Shown: one piece after another, positions 1 through 5,960 of the stretch
Position numbering within the stretch: position 1 is the stretch's first letter
How the letters are laid out: each line of letters starts with the position of its first letter
NCBI RefSeq assembly: GCF_055900595.2
Contig: NZ_CM148325.1
Strand: one strand, 5' to 3'
DNA length: 64,000 bases
Notes under the pieces: model-generated
Seen by the model: the letters and a program-made list of their open reading frames with translations, nothing else
The model's database searches: none
Told to the model about the DNA's origin: nothing
Translations under genes and position numbers: made by a program

Positions 1-675
1 AGCGATATCCTCATGGATATCGAAATTGACCACGCAGACCAGACCGAAGAGAGCGATATATCCTTCCTGACCCGCATGGCTGAAATGCTGGGTGCGATTG
101 CCACCGTAAAAAACGGCAGCCTGTTATTCATTCTGCCGGGTGGCGGAACCGGGCCGGACGGAAGAGCCCTGCCTTCGTTCGCCATTACCCGCAGCAGCGG
201 CGACAGTCACCGCTTTCGCATTGCTGACCGTGATGCGTATACGGGGGTCCGGGCGCACTGGCTCGATCTGAAGTTCGGGCAAAAGAAAAAAGTGAACGTG
301 AAGCGACGCAGGGAAGCCGGGAAACAGAAACAGGAGAAGAGCAGCAGCCGGGAAGGTGATTACATGGAGGGCGCGGAAGGGAACGTCTACGTTCTGCGCA
401 GGACTTACCAGAATGAAGAAACCGCACGACGTGCAGCAGCTGCAAAGTGGCAGGAACTACAGCGGGGCGCGGCATCATTCTCCATCACGCTGGCGCGCGG
501 TCGTGCCGACCTGTACCCTGAAATGCACGGCAGGGTAACAGGTTTTAAAAGCGAGGTGGACAATCAGGACTGGATTATTGCCAGGGTGGAGCACAGCATA
601 GATGAAAGCGGCTTCACCACACAACTGGAGCTGGAAGCGAAAATCCCCGAATGGATAGCAGATTCAGGCGGATAA
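1..675 (+). CDS. P2-like phage late control protein D (gpD), C-terminal part; ORF is open at window start so 5' end lies upstream
   Basis: Translation recognised as gpD-like tail/late protein; frame open from position 1; followed 44 bp later by an ogr-like gene as in P2 gene order D-ogr-att. Confidence 0.75.
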   Translation, partial: SDILMDIEIDHADQTEESDISFLTRMAEMLGAIATVKNGSLLFILPGGGTGPDGRALPSFAITRSSGDSHRFRIADRDAYTGVRAHWLDLKFGQKKKVNVKRRREAGKQKQEKSSSREGDYMEGAEGNVYVLRRTYQNEETARRAAAAKWQELQRGAASFSITLARGRADLYPEMHGRVTGFKSEVDNQDWIIARVEHSIDESGFTTQLELEAKIPEWIADSGG

Positions 676-718
676 AATTAAAATGAGCCATCTCCACTCA
701 GCCAGATAAGGAGAAGCC

Positions 719-970
719 ATGTTCCGTTGTCCCCTGTGCGGTGCATCCGCACGTATCCGCACCAGTCGCAATGAAAATGATTCAGGCACAGTTCGCCTGA
801 AGTACTACCAGTGCAATAACCTCGAATGCGGGATCGGCTTTACCACACTGGAGGGTTTTAACAAATTCACATCAAAACGCGCCCCGTCGCCGCAGGGTAC
901 AGAGCGGATACCGTGGGAAGATTTTCCGGGATCTCACAGGGGGAATGCTCAGATGAATCTTGATATTTAA
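719..970 (+). CDS. ogr: Ogr/Delta-family zinc-finger late transcription activator (P2-like phage)
   Basis: 83 aa, Cys4 motif C-x2-C-x24-C-x4-C (CPLC...CNNLEC), AAGGAG RBS 7 nt upstream of ATG, position immediately after gpD. Confidence 0.8.
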   Translation: MFRCPLCGASARIRTSRNENDSGTVRLKYYQCNNLECGIGFTTLEGFNKFTSKRAPSPQGTERIPWEDFPGSHRGNAQMNLDI

Positions 971-980
971 GAACAATAAT

Positions 981-1114
981 CAGGTTGAGAGGACATCATA
1001 AGGCAAGTAGATTAACGGCAGATACTTTCCCGCAACCACGGGCAAGTATTTAATTATCCATGATGAAATATGACCTAAATTGTTTTTTGCCCGCCGGAAA
1101 GCGGGCATTTTTTT
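981..1114 (+). repeat. Partial copy (U0) of a repeated unit, ending in terminator hairpin T0; candidate phage attR / 3' end of an sRNA-like gene
   Basis: Shares ggttgag, agtagattaac, attatccatgat and the terminator with the units at 1626-1783 and 1828-1987. Confidence 0.5.
1088..1114 (+). terminator. Intrinsic terminator-like hairpin T0 (tgcccgc-cggaaa-gcgggca + T7)
   Basis: 7-bp GC stem, 6-nt loop, 7 consecutive T; identical to T1. Confidence 0.7.
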
Positions 1115-1328
1115 ATTCTTTTGTGGTTATGGGGTCATCAGGAACCACGTGCAGATTATATTTTTGTTTTTTTGGCGTTCCTCCGGCAGCAACGAGTTCA
1201 TCAATAAGACACTGACACGCCTGAACATCCCGGGCATGTCTTAGTTTCACCTTTATTGATTTAACCTTATCCTCACCGGAGGAGAAATGCAGTTCAATCT
1301 CAATATCGTTTCTTCGGAACAATCTCAT
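1113..1328 (-). CDS. Hypothetical small protein (71 aa), orphan ORF between repeat copies
   Basis: ORF with G-rich RBS-like tract (caggggggcgt) directly upstream of ATG; no family recognised; stop codon abuts T0. Confidence 0.35.
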   Translation of the reverse strand: MRLFRRNDIEIELHFSSGEDKVKSIKVKLRHARDVQACQCLIDELVAAGGTPKKQKYNLHVVPDDPITTKE

Positions 1329-1554
1329 ACGCCCCCCTGAACATATCAGAAATGCTAGTATCGAAAAATGAGAAAACAGTTAGACAGGAGAAACATATTA
1401 ACACAAATCATTTATACCTATAGATGAAATTATAATTTCATTCATGAATATGATAGATAACTATATTGTGAACAAAATGAAAAATGGCTAAATTAAAAAT
1501 GGGCATGGAGGAATGCCTCGTAATCAGTAATACATGATCCATACTTCCTTGTTT

Positions 1555-1581
1555 TGCCCGCCGGAAAGCGGGCATTTTTTT
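1555..1581 (+). terminator. Intrinsic terminator-like hairpin T1 (identical to T0)
   Basis: Same stem-loop and T7 run as T0; preceded by conserved catgat motif. Confidence 0.7.
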
Positions 1582-1625
1582 GGCGGTTACCATCGCCTCA
1601 CCTTCCTGGTTCACACAAAGCAACC

Positions 1626-1783
1626 CTGATTTTCCATGAAAACTTCAGGGTTGAGCCAAAAGCACAAAGACAGTAGATTAACCAAGGGTACCCGCCACCT
1701 GCCAACAGGAACGGTATCCAGTACGTATTAATGACTGACAATTCACATTGCTGTTTTGCCCGCCAGAAGGTGGGCATTTTTTT
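1626..1783 (+). repeat. Repeat unit A (about 158 bp) ending in terminator T2; candidate sRNA-like gene copy
   Basis: About 85 percent identical to unit B over the first 75 nt; ends in hairpin gcccgcc-agaa-ggtgggc (one G.U pair) + T7 at 1757-1783. Confidence 0.55.
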
Positions 1784-1827
1784 GGCAGTTATCATGGACG
1801 CACCTTCATGACACATATTAAGCAGAC

Positions 1828-1987
1828 CTGATTTTTCCATGAAAAATTCATGGTTGAGACAAAAGCACAAAAACAGTAGATTAACCACGGGTGCCTGCCA
1901 CCTGACAACAGGAAGGGGTGTCCATTATCCATGATATACAAACGAAAAGTCTTGTCTTTTGCCCGCCGTTGCGCGGGCTTTTTTTTT
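1828..1987 (+). repeat. Repeat unit B (about 160 bp) ending in terminator T3; candidate sRNA-like gene copy
   Basis: Homologous to unit A and to U0; ends in hairpin gcccgc-cgttgc-gcgggc + T9 at 1961-1987. Confidence 0.55.
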
Positions 1988-2016
1988 GCCACCCTCACCA
2001 GTGAGGGTACCATCAT

Positions 2017-2238
2017 TCAGAGGCGCGTAAGCCACCCGGCGTTAACATCCTGCCCGTCAACCCTGACCGCAGAGTCTGAACGGCAGGCACCGGAAGCAGT
2101 ACCAAAAACACCTCTGACAAGTTCCGCCACCTTCCCGATATCATCAGGCGCCACATTCCTCACCTCGACAGCGATCCGTGGCGTACCATCATCGTTAACA
2201 AGCGTGGCTTTAAGGCTGGTACGACGGGCAAATAACAT
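2017..2238 (-). CDS. Hypothetical protein (73 aa, MLFARRTSLKATLVNDDGTPRIAVEV...)
   Basis: ORF with GGAGG-type Shine-Dalgarno (gggaggggg) 8 nt upstream of ATG, balanced amino-acid composition; family not recognised. Confidence 0.4.
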   Translation of the reverse strand: MLFARRTSLKATLVNDDGTPRIAVEVRNVAPDDIGKVAELVRGVFGTASGACRSDSAVRVDGQDVNAGWLTRL

Positions 2239-2294
2239 CAACACCCCCTCCCTTCGGTTCGTTGCACTGGCAGCACGATACCACCAGGAAAAAG

Positions 2295-2329
2295 AAAAGC
2301 CCACAACGTCAGGATTGCGGGCTTTTTTT
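2295..2329 (+). terminator. Hairpin T4 with A-tract upstream and T7 downstream (bidirectional terminator-like)
   Basis: aaaagccc...gggcttttttt about 70 bp upstream of copA -35. Confidence 0.5.
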
Positions 2330-2394
2330 CTTCAAAAATGGACACTACGTGGACACTGATTAAATAATCCTTTCTTAATCAGACTGTTAAAATG

Positions 2395-2431
2395 CTTGAC
2401 CTTCCCCTTGCTGGAAGGTTTAACCTTTAAC
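2395..2431 (+). promoter_or_regulatory. copA promoter with CueR (MerR-family) operator dyad ccttcc-N7-ggaagg between -35 and -10
   Basis: Sequence cttgaccttccccttgctggaaggtttaacc recognised as the copA/CueR box; AAGGAG RBS at 2454-2459. Confidence 0.85.
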
Positions 2432-2465
2432 ACAGTCAGTCAACACTGTCTTAAAGGAGTACGTT

Positions 2466-4970
2466 ATGTCACAAACTATCGACCTGACCCTGGACGGCCT
2501 GTCCTGCGGTCACTGCGTTAAACGCGTGAAAGAAAGTCTCGAACAGCGCCCGGATGTTGAGCAGGCGGATGTGTCTATCACTGAAGCGCACGTTACCGGT
2601 ACTGCCAGTGCAGAACAGCTGATCGAAACCATCAAACAAGCGGGTTATGACGCATCTGTAAGCCACCCAAAGGCTAAACCGCTGGCGGAGTCATCAATCC
2701 CGTCGGAAGCACTGACAGCGGTTTCTGAGGCGCTTCCGGCAGCAAACGCCGATGACGATGACAGTCAGCAGTTGCTGCTGAGCGGCATGAGCTGCGCCAG
2801 CTGTGTTACCCGCGTACAAAATGCGCTGCAAAGCGTACCGGGCGTCACTCAGGCACGGGTAAACCTGGCGGAGCGTACTGCGCTGGTGATGGGCAGTGCC
2901 TCCCCACAAGATTTAGTGCAGGCAGTGGAAAAAGCGGGCTACGGCGCGGAAGCGATTGAAGATGACGCTAAACGCCGCGAGCGCCAGCAGGAAACCGCCG
3001 TCGCTACCATGAAGCGCTTCCGCTGGCAGGCAATTGTCGCTCTGGCGGTAGGTATCCCGGTGATGGTCTGGGGGATGATCGGCGATAACATGATGGTCAC
3101 CGCCGACAACCGCAGTCTGTGGTTAGTTATCGGCCTGATAACGCTGGCGGTAATGGTTTTCGCCGGCGGGCATTTTTACCGTAGCGCATGGAAAAGCCTG
3201 CTGAACGGTGCGGCGACAATGGATACGCTGGTGGCGCTGGGTACTGGCGTGGCGTGGCTCTATTCAATGAGCGTCAACCTGTGGCCGCAGTGGTTCCCGA
3301 TGGAAGCGCGACATCTTTATTACGAAGCCAGTGCGATGATTATCGGTCTGATTAATCTCGGTCATATGCTGGAAGCGCGCGCACGTCAGCGTTCTTCAAA
3401 GGCGCTGGAGAAATTACTCGATTTAACCCCGCCGACGGCGCGCCTGGTCACTGACGAAGGTGAAAAAAGCGTGCCGCTGGCAGATGTTCAGCCTGGTATG
3501 TTACTACGCCTGACGACCGGCGATCGCGTACCGGTAGATGGTGAAATTACCCAGGGCGAAGCGTGGCTGGATGAAGCAATGCTGACGGGCGAACCTATTC
3601 CGCAGCAAAAAGGCGAAGGCGATAGCGTTCATGCAGGTACCGTGGTGCAGGACGGTAGCGTGCTGTTTCGTGCCAGTGCGGTTGGCAGCCATACTACGCT
3701 GTCACGGATCATTCGTATGGTGCGCCAGGCCCAGAGCAGTAAACCGGAAATCGGCCAGTTGGCGGATAAAATCTCTGCCGTATTTGTGCCGGTAGTGGTG
3801 GTGATTGCGCTGGTCAGTGCGGCAATCTGGTACTTCTTTGGTCCGGCACCGCAAATTGTTTATACCCTGGTGATTGCCACTACGGTACTGATTATCGCCT
3901 GCCCGTGTGCGCTGGGGCTGGCAACGCCAATGTCGATTATTTCCGGCGTCGGGCGTGCGGCTGAATTTGGCGTGCTGGTGCGGGACGCCGACGCGCTGCA
4001 GCGCGCCAGTACGCTCGACACCGTAGTGTTCGATAAAACCGGGACGCTGACCGAAGGGAAGCCGCAGGTTGTCGCAGTAAAAACATTTGCTGATGTTGAT
4101 GAAGCGCAAGCATTGCGTCTGGCGGCGGCACTGGAACAAGGTTCCAGCCATCCGCTGGCACGGGCGATCCTCGATAAAGCAGGCGATATGCAGCTGCCGC
4201 AGGTCAACAGCTTCCGTACATTGCGTGGGCTGGGCGTGAGCGGTGAAGCAGAAGGTCATGCGTTATTGCTGGGTAATCAGGCGTTGTTAAATGACCAGCA
4301 AGTCGATACTAAAGCGATTGAAGCAGATATTTCAGCCCAGGCATCGCAAGGGGCAACGCCTGTGCTGCTGGCGGTTGACGGGAAAGCGGTGGCCTTGCTG
4401 GCGGTGCGCGATCCGTTGCGTAACGATAGTGTGGCGGCACTGCAACGTCTGCATAAAGCGGGATATCGTCTGGTGATGCTAACCGGGGATAACCCGACCA
4501 CCGCCAATGCGATCGCCAAAGAAGCAGGGATTGATGAGGTGATAGCCGGCGTGCTGCCAGACGGTAAAGCCGAAGCGATCAAACGTCTGCAAAGTGAAGG
4601 ACGTCAGGTGGCAATGGTGGGCGACGGCATTAACGACGCGCCAGCGCTGGCTCAGGCGGATGTCGGTATTGCTATGGGTGGCGGCAGCGATGTTGCCATT
4701 GAAACCGCGGCGATTACCCTGATGCGCCATAGCCTGATGGGTGTTGCGGATGCGCTCGCAATTTCCCGCGCAACGCTGCGCAACATGAAGCAGAACCTGC
4801 TCGGTGCGTTTATCTACAACAGCATTGGTATTCCGGTCGCCGCCGGTATTTTGTGGCCGTTCACGGGAACACTGCTTAACCCGGTGGTTGCCGGAGCGGC
4901 AATGGCGCTCTCGTCGATTACCGTAGTGAGTAACGCCAACCGGTTGCTGCGGTTTAAACCGAAGGAATAA
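2466..4970 (+). CDS. copA: Cu(I)-translocating P-type ATPase
   Basis: 834 aa; two N-terminal GxxCxxC metal-binding domains, CPC motif, DKTGT phosphorylation site. Confidence 0.97.
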
Positions 4971-5165: not shown

Positions 5166-5960
5166 ATGGATCTGTTGTACCGGGTAAAAACGCTTTGGGC
5201 CGCGCTGTGCGGTAATCATTACACCTGGCCTGCTATCGATATCTCTCTTCCCGACCATCGCCATTTTCATCTAATCGGCAGTATTCATATGGGTAGCCAC
5301 GATATGGCTCCCCTGCCCACCCGTTTGCTCAAAAAGCTCAAAAACGCCGATGCGCTGATCGTCGAGGCGGATGTTTCTACCAGCGATACGCCTTTTGCCA
5401 ATTTGCCTGCCTGCGAGGCGCTGGAAGAGCGCATTAGCGAGGAGCAACTCCAAAACCTGCAGCACATTAGCCAGGAGATGGGCATTTCTCCGTCGCTCTT
5501 TTCTACCCAACCGCTGTGGCAAATCGCGATGGTTCTTCAGGCAACGCAAGCGCAAAAACTGGGGCTGCGGGCAGAATATGGTATCGATTACCAGCTATTG
5601 CAGGTGGCGAAGCAACAACATAAACCCGTGATTGAACTGGAAGGGGCAGAAAACCAGATTGCCATGTTGCTCCAGCTCCCTGACAAAGGACTGGCGCTGC
5701 TGGACGATACGCTGACCCACTGGCACACCAACGCTCGTTTGCTGCAACAAATGATGAGTTGGTGGCTGAATGCACCACCGCAAAATAATGAAATAACGCT
5801 GCCCAATACGTTCAGTCAGTCGCTGTACGATGTGTTGATGCATCAGCGAAATCTCGCCTGGCGGGACAAATTACGCGCTATGCCGCCGGGGCGCTATGTG
5901 GTCGCGGTCGGTGCACTACACCTGTATGGAGAAGGGAATTTGCCACAAATGTTGCGCTAA
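5166..5960 (+). CDS. ybaP: TraB-family protein YbaP
   Basis: 264 aa, recognised as YbaP; GGAGG RBS. Confidence 0.9.
   Translation: MDLLYRVKTLWAALCGNHYTWPAIDISLPDHRHFHLIGSIHMGSHDMAPLPTRLLKKLKNADALIVEADVSTSDTPFANLPACEALEERISEEQLQNLQHISQEMGISPSLFSTQPLWQIAMVLQATQAQKLGLRAEYGIDYQLLQVAKQQHKPVIELEGAENQIAMLLQLPDKGLALLDDTLTHWHTNARLLQQMMSWWLNAPPQNNEITLPNTFSQSLYDVLMHQRNLAWRDKLRAMPPGRYVVAVGALHLYGEGNLPQMLR

What the first reader, a model, noticed from the sequence alone, without database searches (positions are those of the whole stretch)
1340..1550. AT-rich spacer with a hairpin displaying GGAGGA in its loop
The 210-bp segment upstream of T1 is under 30 percent GC, in contrast to its surroundings, and likely carries promoters for the minus-strand 71-aa ORF and/or a + strand RNA ending at T1. 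It contains the stem-loop ggcat-GGAGGA-atgcc (1502-1518) and a 22-codon hydrophobic minus-strand ORF (MPIFNLAIFHFVHNIVIYHIHE) that has no convincing RBS. It could be a type I toxin-antitoxin-like arrangement or simply promoter DNA.
Basis: inference. Interest (0 to 1): 0.3.

Follow-up and report, generated by a model that had tools for sequence, protein, structure and literature searches.

The report
Prophage promoter spacer with candidate sRNA
The AT-rich stretch is the control region of a small accessory cassette at the end of a P2-like prophage in E. coli. It most likely holds back-to-back promoters, one of which would make an unconfirmed ~80-nt small RNA; the proposed mini-toxin gene is a chance reading frame.

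Summary
Window 1340-1550 is 28.4% GC, among the lowest 0.07% of 211-bp windows. The hairpin GGCAT-GGAGGA-ATGCC lies at 1502-1517, and the 22-codon minus-strand ORF is there.

The segment is prophage DNA. A P2-like prophage sits in the copA promoter (att core 2395-2414), and the finding lies in its ogr-to-attR accessory arm.

That arm carries four cassettes of one design: a sigma-70-like promoter, a 5' stem-loop at the predicted start, a variable stretch, a U-rich tract and a shared terminator. One cassette (Ux: TTGTGA-17-TAAATT at 1466-1494, predicted RNA about 1501-1581) lies inside the finding. The GGAGGA hairpin is its 5' stem-loop and T1 is its terminator.

To the left are a 28-bp invariant island, an 18-bp palindrome and a candidate leftward promoter for the 71-aa gene.

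The type I toxin reading fails. The small ORF has no ribosome-binding site, changes mostly non-synonymously or disappears in paralogues, and 45% of shuffles give an ORF that long. No cassette RNA shows extended complementarity to the 71-aa mRNA.

There is no Rfam match, no covariation and no expression data. The element is ordinary in kind and rare: 30 of 5426 complete E. coli genomes.

The parts
1113..1328 (-). orf71, a 71-aa gene that the spacer presumably controls. It matches only the C-terminal half of phage family PHROG 14142 (function unknown).
   Evidence: ORF list. RefSeq WP_001236182.1, hypothetical. PHROG 14142 E=4.9e-12, residues 1-56 on profile positions 72-127 of 128. Long forms P0009 and P0011 and short form P0010. 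No Pfam or PADLOC hit.
1332..1337 (-). G-run (GGGGGG on the minus strand) 3 nt upstream of the orf71 ATG. It is a Shine-Dalgarno-like site.
   Evidence: Read from the sequence. Present with 4-6 G in variants X1-X3; replaced by AGGAGG in X4 (read from the alignment).
1404..1431 (.). 28-bp invariant island, CAAATCATTTATACCTATAGATGAAATT. Probably a protein-binding site or core control element for orf71.
   Evidence: 27-28 of 28 positions identical in all four spacer variants, while the flanks are about 63-79% identical in X3 and X4.
1424..1441 (.). Perfect 18-bp palindrome, ATGAAATTATAATTTCAT. Candidate operator.
   Evidence: Verified. Unique in the window and absent from the rest of the prophage. 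The half-sites ATGAAA/TTTCAT are kept in X4 while the centre changes; the right half is lost in the X3 copy that sits next to a decayed orf71.
1429..1456 (-). Candidate leftward sigma-70 promoter for orf71: CTATCA-16-TATAAT, 9 of 12 matches. Its -10 lies inside the palindrome.
   Evidence: Own hexamer scan. Not conserved in X3 or X4, so it is tentative.
1466..1494 (+). Candidate rightward promoter PUx: TTGTGA-17-TAAATT, 8 of 12 matches. Predicted start near G1501.
   Evidence: -35 invariant and -10 changed at one position (TAAATT/TAGATT) in X1-X4, spacer length constant but 6 of 17 bases differ in X4. Aligns in register with the TTGAGA-17-TAGATT promoters of the neighbouring cassettes.
1501..1518 (+). 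Stem-loop GGGCAU-GGAGGA-AUGCCU. Predicted 5' stem-loop of the Ux RNA. On the minus strand it also scores as a weak terminator.
   Evidence: Minus-strand terminator-like hit. Stem kept in X1-X3; the closing pair is G-U in two copies and G-C in one. Loop is GGAGGA, GGAGGA, GGTGGA. The hairpin is absent in X4.
1519..1551 (+). Variable, mostly unpaired body of Ux. It contains the anti-Shine-Dalgarno-like ACUUCCUU (1543-1550).
   Evidence: Only 20 of 33 positions match X2, although the upstream 1329-1500 is about 98% identical. 31 of 33 match X3. This is a mosaic. Folds.
1552..1581 (+). T1: U-rich tract, a 7-bp G+C-rich stem and seven U. It is the intrinsic terminator and resembles an Hfq-binding 3' module. 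A 30-bp exact repeat of it lies at 1085-1114.
1438..1506 (-). 22-codon ORF, MPIFNLAIFHFVHNIVIYHIHE. Judged a chance ORF.
   Evidence: Not conserved in paralogues.
985..1114 (+). Cassette U1: promoter TTGAGA-17-TAGATT, predicted RNA about 1020-1114. It converges on orf71, and its terminator tail overlaps the orf71 stop codon.
1651..1783 (+). Cassette U2: TTGAGC-17-TAGATT, predicted RNA about 1686-1783.
1854..1986 (+). Cassette U3: TTGAGA-17-TAGATT, predicted RNA about 1889-1986.
2395..2414 (.). attR core of the prophage, CTTGACCTTCCCCTTGCTGG. It lies in the promoter region about 50-70 bp upstream of the copA start codon and marks the right edge of the prophage that carries the finding.
   Evidence: 20-bp direct repeat with attL next to the integrase gene (L004 5379-5398).

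Best explanation
The AT-rich segment is the intergenic control region of a small accessory (moron-type) cassette in the ogr-to-attR arm of a P2-like prophage.

**Rightward.** A promoter, TTGTGA-17-TAAATT (1466-1494), would start transcription near G1501. It would give an RNA of about 81 nt with these parts:
- the GGAGGA stem-loop (1501-1518) at its 5' end;
- a variable unpaired stretch of about 33 nt, including ACUUCCUU;
- a U-rich tract;
- the strong terminator T1 (ending at 1581).

This is the layout of an Hfq-type trans-acting small RNA. It is also the layout of three neighbouring cassettes, U1, U2 and U3.

**Leftward.** A 28-bp invariant island, an 18-bp palindrome and a candidate promoter, CTATCA-16-TATAAT (1456->1429), would drive and regulate orf71.

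The 22-codon ORF is a by-product of T-rich sequence.

**Shown:** the sequence features, their repetition in the neighbouring cassettes, the conservation pattern and the prophage context.

**Inferred:** that either promoter fires, that the RNA accumulates and binds Hfq, and what it targets.
For: **Context.** The window up to 2394 is prophage. It carries gpD and ogr at 13-970, and a 20-bp att repeat with the integrase at the far end.

**Shared cassette design.**
- There are four terminators of one family at 1085-1114, 1552-1581, 1754-1783 and 1957-1986. Three are preceded by TTGAG(A/C)-17-TAGATT.
- The Ux region aligns in register with them. The TTG.GA and TA.ATTAA columns and the TTTT tract before the terminator are invariant.
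- In U1 and U3 the predicted stem-loop begins at the predicted start; in U2 only a short helix folds there; in Ux the first-base stem is a long-range helix in the window copy and the local hairpin in X2/X3.

**Promoter footprint.** Across variants X1-X4 the -35 hexamer is unchanged and the -10 changes at one position. The 17-nt spacer keeps its length but differs at 6 positions in X4.

**RNA scaffold.** The consensus fold of X1-X4 is a 5' hairpin plus a terminator. The stretch between them is the most diverged part: 20 of 33 positions match X2, against about 98% identity upstream. This fits a conserved scaffold with an exchangeable pairing region.

**3' module.** A U-rich tract, a G+C-rich hairpin and at least 7 U form the described Hfq-binding 3' module of enterobacterial small RNAs. 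I cite this from memory (Otaka et al. 2011; Ishikawa et al. 2012); it was not checked here.

**Leftward side.** The island is 27-28 of 28 identical while its flanks are about 63-79% identical. The palindrome half-sites are kept where orf71 is intact. The candidate promoter scores 9 of 12.
Against: - There are no transcript data of any kind.
- PUx matches only 8 of 12 consensus positions and fell below the standard scan threshold.
- A weight matrix built from the U1, U2 and U3 promoters does not place the Ux site in its top ten in the window. Homology of Ux with the other cassettes, as opposed to a shared design plus a shared terminator, is therefore not shown.
- No base pair of the hairpin shows a compensatory change.
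- Variant X4 sits next to an intact orf71 yet lacks the hairpin.
- In the window's own copy, the minimum-energy fold pairs GGAGG with the downstream CUUCC instead of forming the local hairpin. That alternative is not conserved.
- There is no Rfam family at or near threshold.
- The leftward promoter is not conserved in X3 or X4.
- All copies come from one narrow E. coli prophage lineage, so conservation may partly reflect recent common descent or gene conversion.
Confidence: 0.55

Rival explanations
1. The segment is only regulatory or spacer DNA for orf71, and no stable plus-strand RNA is made. T1 is just the joint left by recombination between terminator repeats. The hairpin is either chance or a weak minus-strand terminator that shields the orf71 promoter from leftward read-through coming from the 73-aa gene at 2238-2020.
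For: - The hairpin followed by CATTTTTAAT scores as a terminator-like site on the minus strand.
- The shared terminators are one-directional, so leftward transcripts from the right would not be stopped before this point (read from the sequence).
- The orf71-plus-spacer module is flanked by 30-bp exact repeats.
- PUx is a modest match.
- Such a hairpin arises in 5% of shuffles.
Against: - The stem is only 5-6 bp, and X4 lacks it.
- This reading does not explain why the TTGTGA and TAAATT hexamers are essentially unchanged (one change in the -10) while the spacer between them varies.
- It also does not explain why the hairpin sits exactly where the other three cassettes have their 5' stem-loops.
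Confidence: 0.28
2. Type I toxin-antitoxin module. The 22-codon hydrophobic minus-strand ORF is a small membrane toxin, and a plus-strand RNA ending at T1 is its antisense antitoxin.
For: - The peptide is hydrophobic.
- A plus-strand RNA from PUx would overlap only the first 2 codons of the ORF (1501-1506).
- Related prophage arms do carry annotated Hok/Gef toxins.
Against: - There is no Shine-Dalgarno sequence, and the ATG lies inside the hairpin stem.
- An ORF of this length occurs in 45% of shuffles.
- In the X3 paralogue, five of six codon changes are non-synonymous and the stop codon is lost.
- In X4 the ATG and the hairpin are gone although orf71 next to it is intact.
- The hydrophobicity follows from T-rich codons in 23% GC DNA.
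Confidence: 0.02
3. orf71 and Ux form a regulatory pair, either a type I-like toxin-antitoxin or a divergent small-RNA repressor. In this reading the CAUACUUCCUUG of Ux pairs with the Shine-Dalgarno and AUG region of orf71 (CAGGGGGGCGUAUG).
For: - A duplex of about -15.6 kcal/mol covering the ribosome-binding site is predicted.
- The divergent gene layout resembles tisB/istR-1, shoB/ohsC and zorO/orzO (from memory).
Against: - The orf71 start region ranks only 12th of 55 prophage start regions for pairing with the unpaired part of Ux.
- The longest shared word between any cassette RNA and the orf71 sense strand is 6-8 nt, the same as shuffles.
- Variant X2 sits next to an intact orf71 and lacks the CUUCC motif.
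- orf71 is not hydrophobic and matches no toxin or defence profile.
Confidence: 0.05
4. The whole arm is decaying, non-functional repeat DNA made by unequal crossing-over between terminator repeats. The promoter-like and hairpin features are leftovers with no present function.
For: - Expanded arrays contain truncated and frameshifted orf71 copies.
- The arm has a mosaic structure.
- Its distribution is very narrow: 30 of 5426 E. coli genomes, none of 100,044 species representatives, and no match in the phage or plasmid collections.
Against: - The 28-bp island and the promoter hexamers stay unchanged or nearly so (one -10 change; 27 of 28 in X3) in copies whose surroundings have diverged by 25-35%.
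- orf71 is identical, as WP_001236182.1, at three different chromosomal insertion sites.
Confidence: 0.1

Closest known systems
Prophage-encoded Hfq-type small RNAs of E. coli and Salmonella: DicF, the EHEC RNAs AgvB and AsxR (Tree et al. 2014, PMC4104026), and the Pas sRNAs of EPEC (Zhu, Shabalina and Storz 2026, bioRxiv 10.64898/2026.05.13.724894)
   Same: A short gene on a prophage with its own promoter. It has a stem-loop, an unpaired stretch, a U-rich tract and an intrinsic terminator with a long U tail. It is strain-specific, present in several copies, and its variants differ mainly in the unpaired region.
   Different: - There is no sequence or structure match. The best Rfam scores are about 20 bits against thresholds of 55-56, and they come from the terminator alone.
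- The carrier is a P2-like phage, not a lambdoid one.
- The copies sit in tandem about 200 bp apart. The Pas paper states that its copies are distant and not tandem.
- Expression, Hfq binding and targets are untested here.
Tandem sibling small RNAs (OmrA/OmrB, PrrF1/PrrF2, Qrr1-5); review PMC4211561
   Same: Adjacent paralogous small-RNA genes with conserved promoters and terminators and diverged bodies.
   Different: Those are chromosomal, with proven regulators and targets. Here the cassettes are phage cargo, they are interleaved with a protein gene (and with hok or hicAB modules in relatives), and they are unproven.
Type I toxin-antitoxin loci with a divergently encoded antitoxin RNA (tisB/istR-1, shoB/ohsC, zorO/orzO; ralR/ralA, PMC4041452)
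   Same: A small gene and a small RNA gene lie back to back across an AT-rich control region in a prophage.
   Different: The complementarity that defines those systems (16 nt in ralR/ralA per its abstract; about 16-23 nt in the others from memory) is absent. Neither the 22-codon ORF nor orf71 shows toxin features.
CyaR (RyeE) beside the P2 remnant gene ogrK in E. coli K-12, where the 3' end of the small RNA is the P2 attachment core (from memory, not checked here)
   Same: A small-RNA gene lies immediately after ogr at the right end of a P2-type prophage, as U1 does here.
   Different: Here the att core is the copA promoter sequence, not a small-RNA terminator. The cassettes travel with the phage to three different insertion sites. 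There is no CyaR match in Rfam.

Membership tests
Any described RNA family (Rfam 15) | Covariance-model score at or above the family's gathering threshold | tested here: not met
   Window 600-2600 at E<=1 gives only terminator-driven hits: Hrs1 24 bits against 56.4, RyhB 20.6 against 55, AgvB 20.2 against 56. The expanded array in L003 gives no hit at gathering score.
Hfq-type trans-acting small RNA gene | Own promoter upstream of a short non-coding transcript | tested here: inconclusive
   TTGTGA-17-TAAATT matches 8 of 12 positions. -35 invariant and -10 changed at one position across X1-X4 with a variable spacer. It is below the 9-of-12 scan threshold, and there are no transcription-start data.
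Hfq-type trans-acting small RNA gene | Intrinsic terminator with a long U tail, preceded by a U-rich tract (the Hfq-binding 3' module) | tested here: met
   UUGUUUU, a 7-bp G+C-rich stem and UUUUUUU at 1549-1581. The TTTT tract before the stem is invariant in all four cassettes. This is a sequence feature only.
Hfq-type trans-acting small RNA gene | Accumulation of the RNA, Hfq binding, and base pairing with target mRNAs | not testable with these tools
   No expression or interaction data are available. There is no match of 12 nt or more to the rest of the prophage. Whole-genome target prediction was not possible.
Structured RNA supported by covariation | Compensatory base changes that keep the stem | tested here: not met
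   None of 13 predicted pairs has a double change. One pair is G-U in two copies and G-C in one. The hairpin is broken in X4.
Type I toxin-antitoxin system | A small hydrophobic toxin ORF that is translated and conserved | tested here: not met
   No ribosome-binding site. The length equals chance, at 45% of shuffles. Changes in X3 are mostly non-synonymous with loss of the stop codon, and the ORF is absent in X4.
Type I toxin-antitoxin system | An antitoxin RNA with extended complementarity to the toxin mRNA | tested here: not met
   For orf71, the longest shared word with U1, Ux, U2 or U3 is 6-8 nt, equal to shuffles. Pairing at the start region ranks 12th of 55.
Intrinsic (Rho-independent) terminator, for T1 | G+C-rich stem-loop followed by a T run | tested here: met
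   7 pairs, 6 of them G-C, a loop of 6, and seven T. Six such sites were found in 900-2500 against 1.7 expected.
P2-like prophage cargo (moron) region | Location between the last late gene (ogr) and attR, inside att-bounded prophage DNA | tested here: met
   gpD and ogr at 13-970. The att core repeat is at 2395-2414 and next to the integrase gene. The same arm is found at the ihfA and serS insertion sites.

The most novel reading that the evidence does not exclude
The ogr-to-attR arm of this P2-like prophage lineage may be a recombination-driven array of sibling small-RNA genes, with Ux as one cassette.
- There are 4 cassettes in this window and at least 10 in relatives.
- The shared terminator hairpins would act as the joints at which promoter, scaffold and pairing-region modules are exchanged.
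- Different cassettes carry different pairing regions. Ux has an anti-Shine-Dalgarno ACUUCCUU, and U2-type units have a 10-11-nt match to the RyhB core (CUCACAUUGCU).
- The phage would then deliver a set of regulators, or decoys for host small RNAs, that rewire host post-transcriptional control.
Probability: 0.15. Interest if true: 0.6.

Novelty: new member of a known kind. Interest (0 to 1): 0.3.

Why it matters
If Ux and its neighbours are expressed, this would be an uncatalogued family of prophage-borne small RNAs. It is absent from Rfam and from the phage and plasmid collections searched. The genes are arranged in tandem on a P2-type phage, and their pairing regions are shuffled between copies. 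That would make a compact natural example of how phages assemble and diversify regulatory RNA cargo.

If they are not expressed, the segment is simply the AT-rich promoter region of an unknown 71-aa phage gene.

Either way, the small 'toxin' ORF can be dropped from further consideration.

Tried and rejected
1. **Split-gene idea.** I asked whether orf71 and the 73-aa ORF at 2020-2238 are the two halves of a PHROG 14142 gene interrupted by the cassette array. Position and synteny suggested it. However, the 73-aa ORF shows no significant similarity to the N-terminal halves of P0009 or P0011 (E=0.63 and no hit) and no PHROG 14142 hit. It is unsupported.
2. **Structure of the orf71 family.** The AlphaFold model from a 4-sequence alignment had mean pLDDT 47.8, too poor for a fold search, so none was run.
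3. **Weight matrix from the U1, U2 and U3 promoters.** It recovers only those three sites. Ux is not in the top ten, so sequence homology of the Ux promoter with the others is unproven.
4. **Ux as a repressor of orf71 translation.** Pairing is not specific, at rank 12 of 55, and is not conserved in X2.
5. **Antisense targets inside the prophage.** There is nothing of 12 nt or more apart from the cassettes themselves.
6. **The palindrome as a repeated operator.** It has no other copy in the prophage or the window.
7. **Wider relatives.**
   - The invariant island has no match in 100,044 species genomes.
   - The terminator pattern finds only unrelated single terminators, for example RyhB of Intestinirhabdus and a Rahnella locus.
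   - IMG/VR holds only three contigs of the same E. coli prophage.
   - The phage and plasmid collections give no match.
8. **Literature.** No paper was found on small RNAs of P2-like prophages. The Pas sRNA preprint concerns lambdoid prophages.

Full report
**1. What is in the sequence**

The finding is accurate.
- Window 1340-1550 is 28.4% GC, and 23% for 1350-1500. The window as a whole is 51.5%. Only 0.07% of 211-bp windows are as low.
- The hairpin GGCAT-GGAGGA-ATGCC lies at 1502-1517, one base shorter than stated. A sixth G-U pair is possible at 1501/1518, and the local fold is -8.8 kcal/mol.
- The 22-codon minus-strand ORF runs 1506->1438.
- T1 (1555-1581) is a strong plus-strand intrinsic terminator.

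By chance, a hairpin of this quality appears in about 5% of shuffles of the segment. An ORF of this length appears in 45%.

**2. Where it sits**

The window is E. coli.
- Bases 13-970 encode the end of a P2-type late region: gpD and an Ogr/Delta zinc-finger protein.
- copA starts at 2466.
- In a nearly identical genome (CS5L, 99.7% identity), the prophage runs from an integrase gene next to glsA to this point.
- A 20-bp direct repeat, CTTGACCTTCCCCTTGCTGG, marks attL (L004 5379-5398) and attR (window 2395-2414).

Everything up to 2394 is therefore phage DNA, and the finding lies in the ogr-to-attR arm. The repeat lies about 50-70 bp upstream of the copA start codon, and from memory I recognise it as the -35 and CueR-operator part of the copA promoter.

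The same arm, with the same 71-aa gene (WP_001236182.1), occurs in prophages inserted beside ihfA and beside serS. The spacer occurs in only 30 of 5426 complete E. coli genomes, and the neighbouring cassettes in 30 as well, the same strains in every row listed. The phage and plasmid collections give no match. IMG/VR holds three contigs of the same prophage. None of 100,044 species-representative genomes has it.

**3. The arm is a set of repeated cassettes**

Four terminators of one family lie at 1085-1114, 1552-1581, 1754-1783 and 1957-1986. The first two are identical over 30 bp.

Three of them are preceded, about 95 nt upstream, by a promoter-like site: TTGAGA-17-TAGATT for U1 and U3, and TTGAGC-17-TAGATT for U2. 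In U1 and U3 the predicted RNA begins with a stem-loop at the predicted start (in U2 only a short helix folds there). Each continues with an unpaired stretch and a U-rich tract, and ends in the terminator with at least seven U.

When the stretch upstream of T1 is aligned with these three, it falls into register. TTGTGA-17-TAAATT (1466-1494) aligns with the promoters. The GGAGGA hairpin aligns with the 5' stem-loops. The TTTT tract and terminator are invariant.

**4. Comparative evidence**

Related prophages carry expanded arrays. L003 has three copies of the orf71-plus-spacer module, two of them with a decayed orf71. It also has seven further cassettes and two hok-like loci. Together with L007, this gives four diverged versions of the spacer, X1-X4.

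The segment-by-segment identities are informative:
- The -35 hexamer of PUx is unchanged in all four versions and the -10 changes at one position. The 17-nt spacer keeps its length but differs at 6 positions in X4.
- A 28-bp island (1404-1431) is 27-28 of 28 identical in every version, while its flanks are about 63-79% identical in X3 and X4.
- The RNA body (1519-1551) is the most exchangeable part. It matches X2 at 20 of 33 positions although the 170 bp upstream are about 98% identical, and it matches X3 at 31 of 33.

The hairpin stem is kept in X1-X3, with the closing pair G-U in two copies and G-C in one. The loop reads GGAGGA, GGAGGA, GGTGGA. In X4 the hairpin is lost, although that copy sits next to an intact orf71 in L007. 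There are no compensatory changes.

This pattern fits a promoter, a conserved RNA scaffold and a swappable pairing region. All copies belong to one narrow lineage, however, and no transcript evidence exists.

**5. The leftward half**

orf71 (1328->1113) has a G-run ribosome-binding site. It matches only the C-terminal half of PHROG 14142, a family of unknown function.
- An exhaustive search found eight relatives among 1.8 billion representatives. They include 128- and 133-aa long forms and a 57-aa short form that starts at the same internal methionine.
- One long form sits convergent to ogr at the end of another P2-like prophage, which is the same position, but without any cassettes.
- There is no Pfam or PADLOC hit, and the structure model was too poor to use.

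In the spacer, a perfect 18-bp palindrome, ATGAAATTATAATTTCAT (1424-1441), overlaps the -10 of the only leftward promoter candidate, CTATCA-16-TATAAT. The palindrome half-sites persist where orf71 is intact and decay where it is not. I read this as an operator and promoter for orf71. That promoter is not conserved in X3 or X4, and the binding factor is unknown.

**6. The toxin-antitoxin idea**

The 22-codon ORF fails every test available.
- It has no ribosome-binding site.
- Its length equals chance.
- In X3, five of six codon changes are non-synonymous and the stop codon is lost. In X4 the ORF is absent.

I also tested orf71 as a toxin with a cassette RNA as its antitoxin.
- None of the four RNAs shares more than 6-8 nt with the orf71 sense strand, the same as shuffles.
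- The apparent pairing of Ux's CUUCCUU with the orf71 ribosome-binding site is generic. It ranks 12th of 55 prophage start regions and is missing in X2.

**7. Alternatives that remain**

On the minus strand, the hairpin followed by CAUUUUUAAU scores as a weak terminator. The shared terminators work only rightward. This hairpin could therefore stop leftward read-through before it reaches the orf71 promoter. That reading and the 5' stem-loop reading are not exclusive.

In the window's own copy, the lowest-energy fold pairs GGAGG with the downstream CUUCC. This alternative is not kept in X2 or X3.

**8. Comparison with known systems**

The closest known kind is the prophage-encoded Hfq-type small RNA: DicF, AgvB and AsxR (PMC4104026), and the Pas sRNAs (bioRxiv 10.64898/2026.05.13.724894).
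- The design is the same.
- Membership of any described family was tested and not met.
- Unlike the Pas genes, which that paper reports as dispersed rather than tandem, these cassettes are tandem and lie on a P2-type phage.

Type I toxin-antitoxin membership was tested and not met.

**9. Verdict**

The finding is a real feature, ordinary in kind. It is the AT-rich control region of a prophage cargo cassette. It most likely contains back-to-back promoters and the start of an unconfirmed small RNA of about 80 nt, for which T1 is the terminator.

I place 0.55 on that reading. I place 0.28 on 'promoter or insulator only, no stable RNA', and 0.02-0.10 on each of the rest.

The surrounding tandem, mosaic cassette array is the more interesting object and would justify a Northern blot or dRNA-seq experiment.

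Noticed in passing
window 2395-2414; L004 5379-5398: The P2-like prophage is inserted in the copA promoter region. The 20-bp att core, CTTGACCTTCCCCTTGCTGG, lies about 50-70 bp upstream of the copA start. From memory, it is the -35 and left half of the CueR operator. attR keeps the sequence from the core to the copA start uninterrupted, but all upstream DNA is now phage. The effect on copper regulation was not examined.
   Followed up: partly
window 2339-2360; L004 about 5488-5497; L008 3930-3950; L014 1283-1303; L010 3940-3947: Direct repeats of TGGACA (TGTCCA on the other strand) lie just inside attR, and a single copy lies next to the integrase gene at attL. They are probably integrase arm sites. 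TCCAC motifs (two copies in L008 and L014, one in L010) also lie upstream of the PHROG 14142 genes in three unrelated elements.
   Followed up: no
window 1738-1752 (U2); L003 2995-3010 and 3644-3659: U2-type cassettes carry UCACAUUGCU (CUCACAUUGCU in L003) just before the terminator. This is a 10-11-nt match to the conserved RyhB core, as seen in the Rfam consensus. It could be a RyhB-like pairing region. Given how many comparisons are possible, chance is not excluded.
   Followed up: partly
L003 1040-4700 (E. coli ECCNB12-2, prophage beside serS): The expanded arm has three orf71-plus-spacer modules, two with a truncated or frameshifted orf71. It also has seven further small-RNA-like cassettes, an annotated Hok/Gef gene (2094-2234) and a second, apparently degenerate hok-like locus (about 4090-4240). 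In the ihfA-site prophages (L002, L031, L032, L034) the arm ends with hicAB instead.
   Followed up: partly
window 1085-1114 and 1552-1581: A 30-bp exact direct repeat of the terminator flanks the 437-bp orf71-plus-spacer module. The same terminator-module-terminator arrangement recurs in L003. This suggests that modules are moved or duplicated by recombination between the terminator hairpins.
   Followed up: partly
window 1113-1115 / 1108-1114: The orf71 stop codon overlaps the U tail of the U1 terminator, which does not act leftward. Unless it is stopped otherwise, the orf71 mRNA would run antisense through U1, in the manner of lambda oop.
   Followed up: no
window 1624-1650 and 1826-1853: An inverted repeat, CCCTGA-N15-TCAGGG, contains TTTTCCATGAAAA and abuts the -35 of the U2 promoter. 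A degraded version lies before U3. It may be a regulator site. It shares the ATGAAA half-site with the spacer palindrome.
   Followed up: no
window 2020-2238 (-) and 2295-2326: A 73-aa hypothetical gene (WP_029490443.1) lies next to attR and has no family match. Between it and attR, upstream of the gene, lies a 13-bp-stem hairpin that scores as a minus-strand terminator. The same block lies next to serS in L003, so it belongs to the phage.
   Followed up: partly
L008 4500-4760; L010 3440-3700: Near the PHROG 14142 relatives there are AT-rich stretches with iteron-like repeats: GTGACGG/CCGTCAC in L008 and GTAATAA/TTACA in L010. L010 also encodes a primase and a derepression protein, so it looks like a P4-like satellite.
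   Followed up: no
L040, L041, L045, L050 (Rahnella species): A conserved Rahnella locus ends in the same terminator pattern. It is preceded by GTGCTCACCCCCGAGGGAGTAC...AATGAATGTCATAAGAAATA. It is possibly an unrelated small RNA and was not examined.
   Followed up: no
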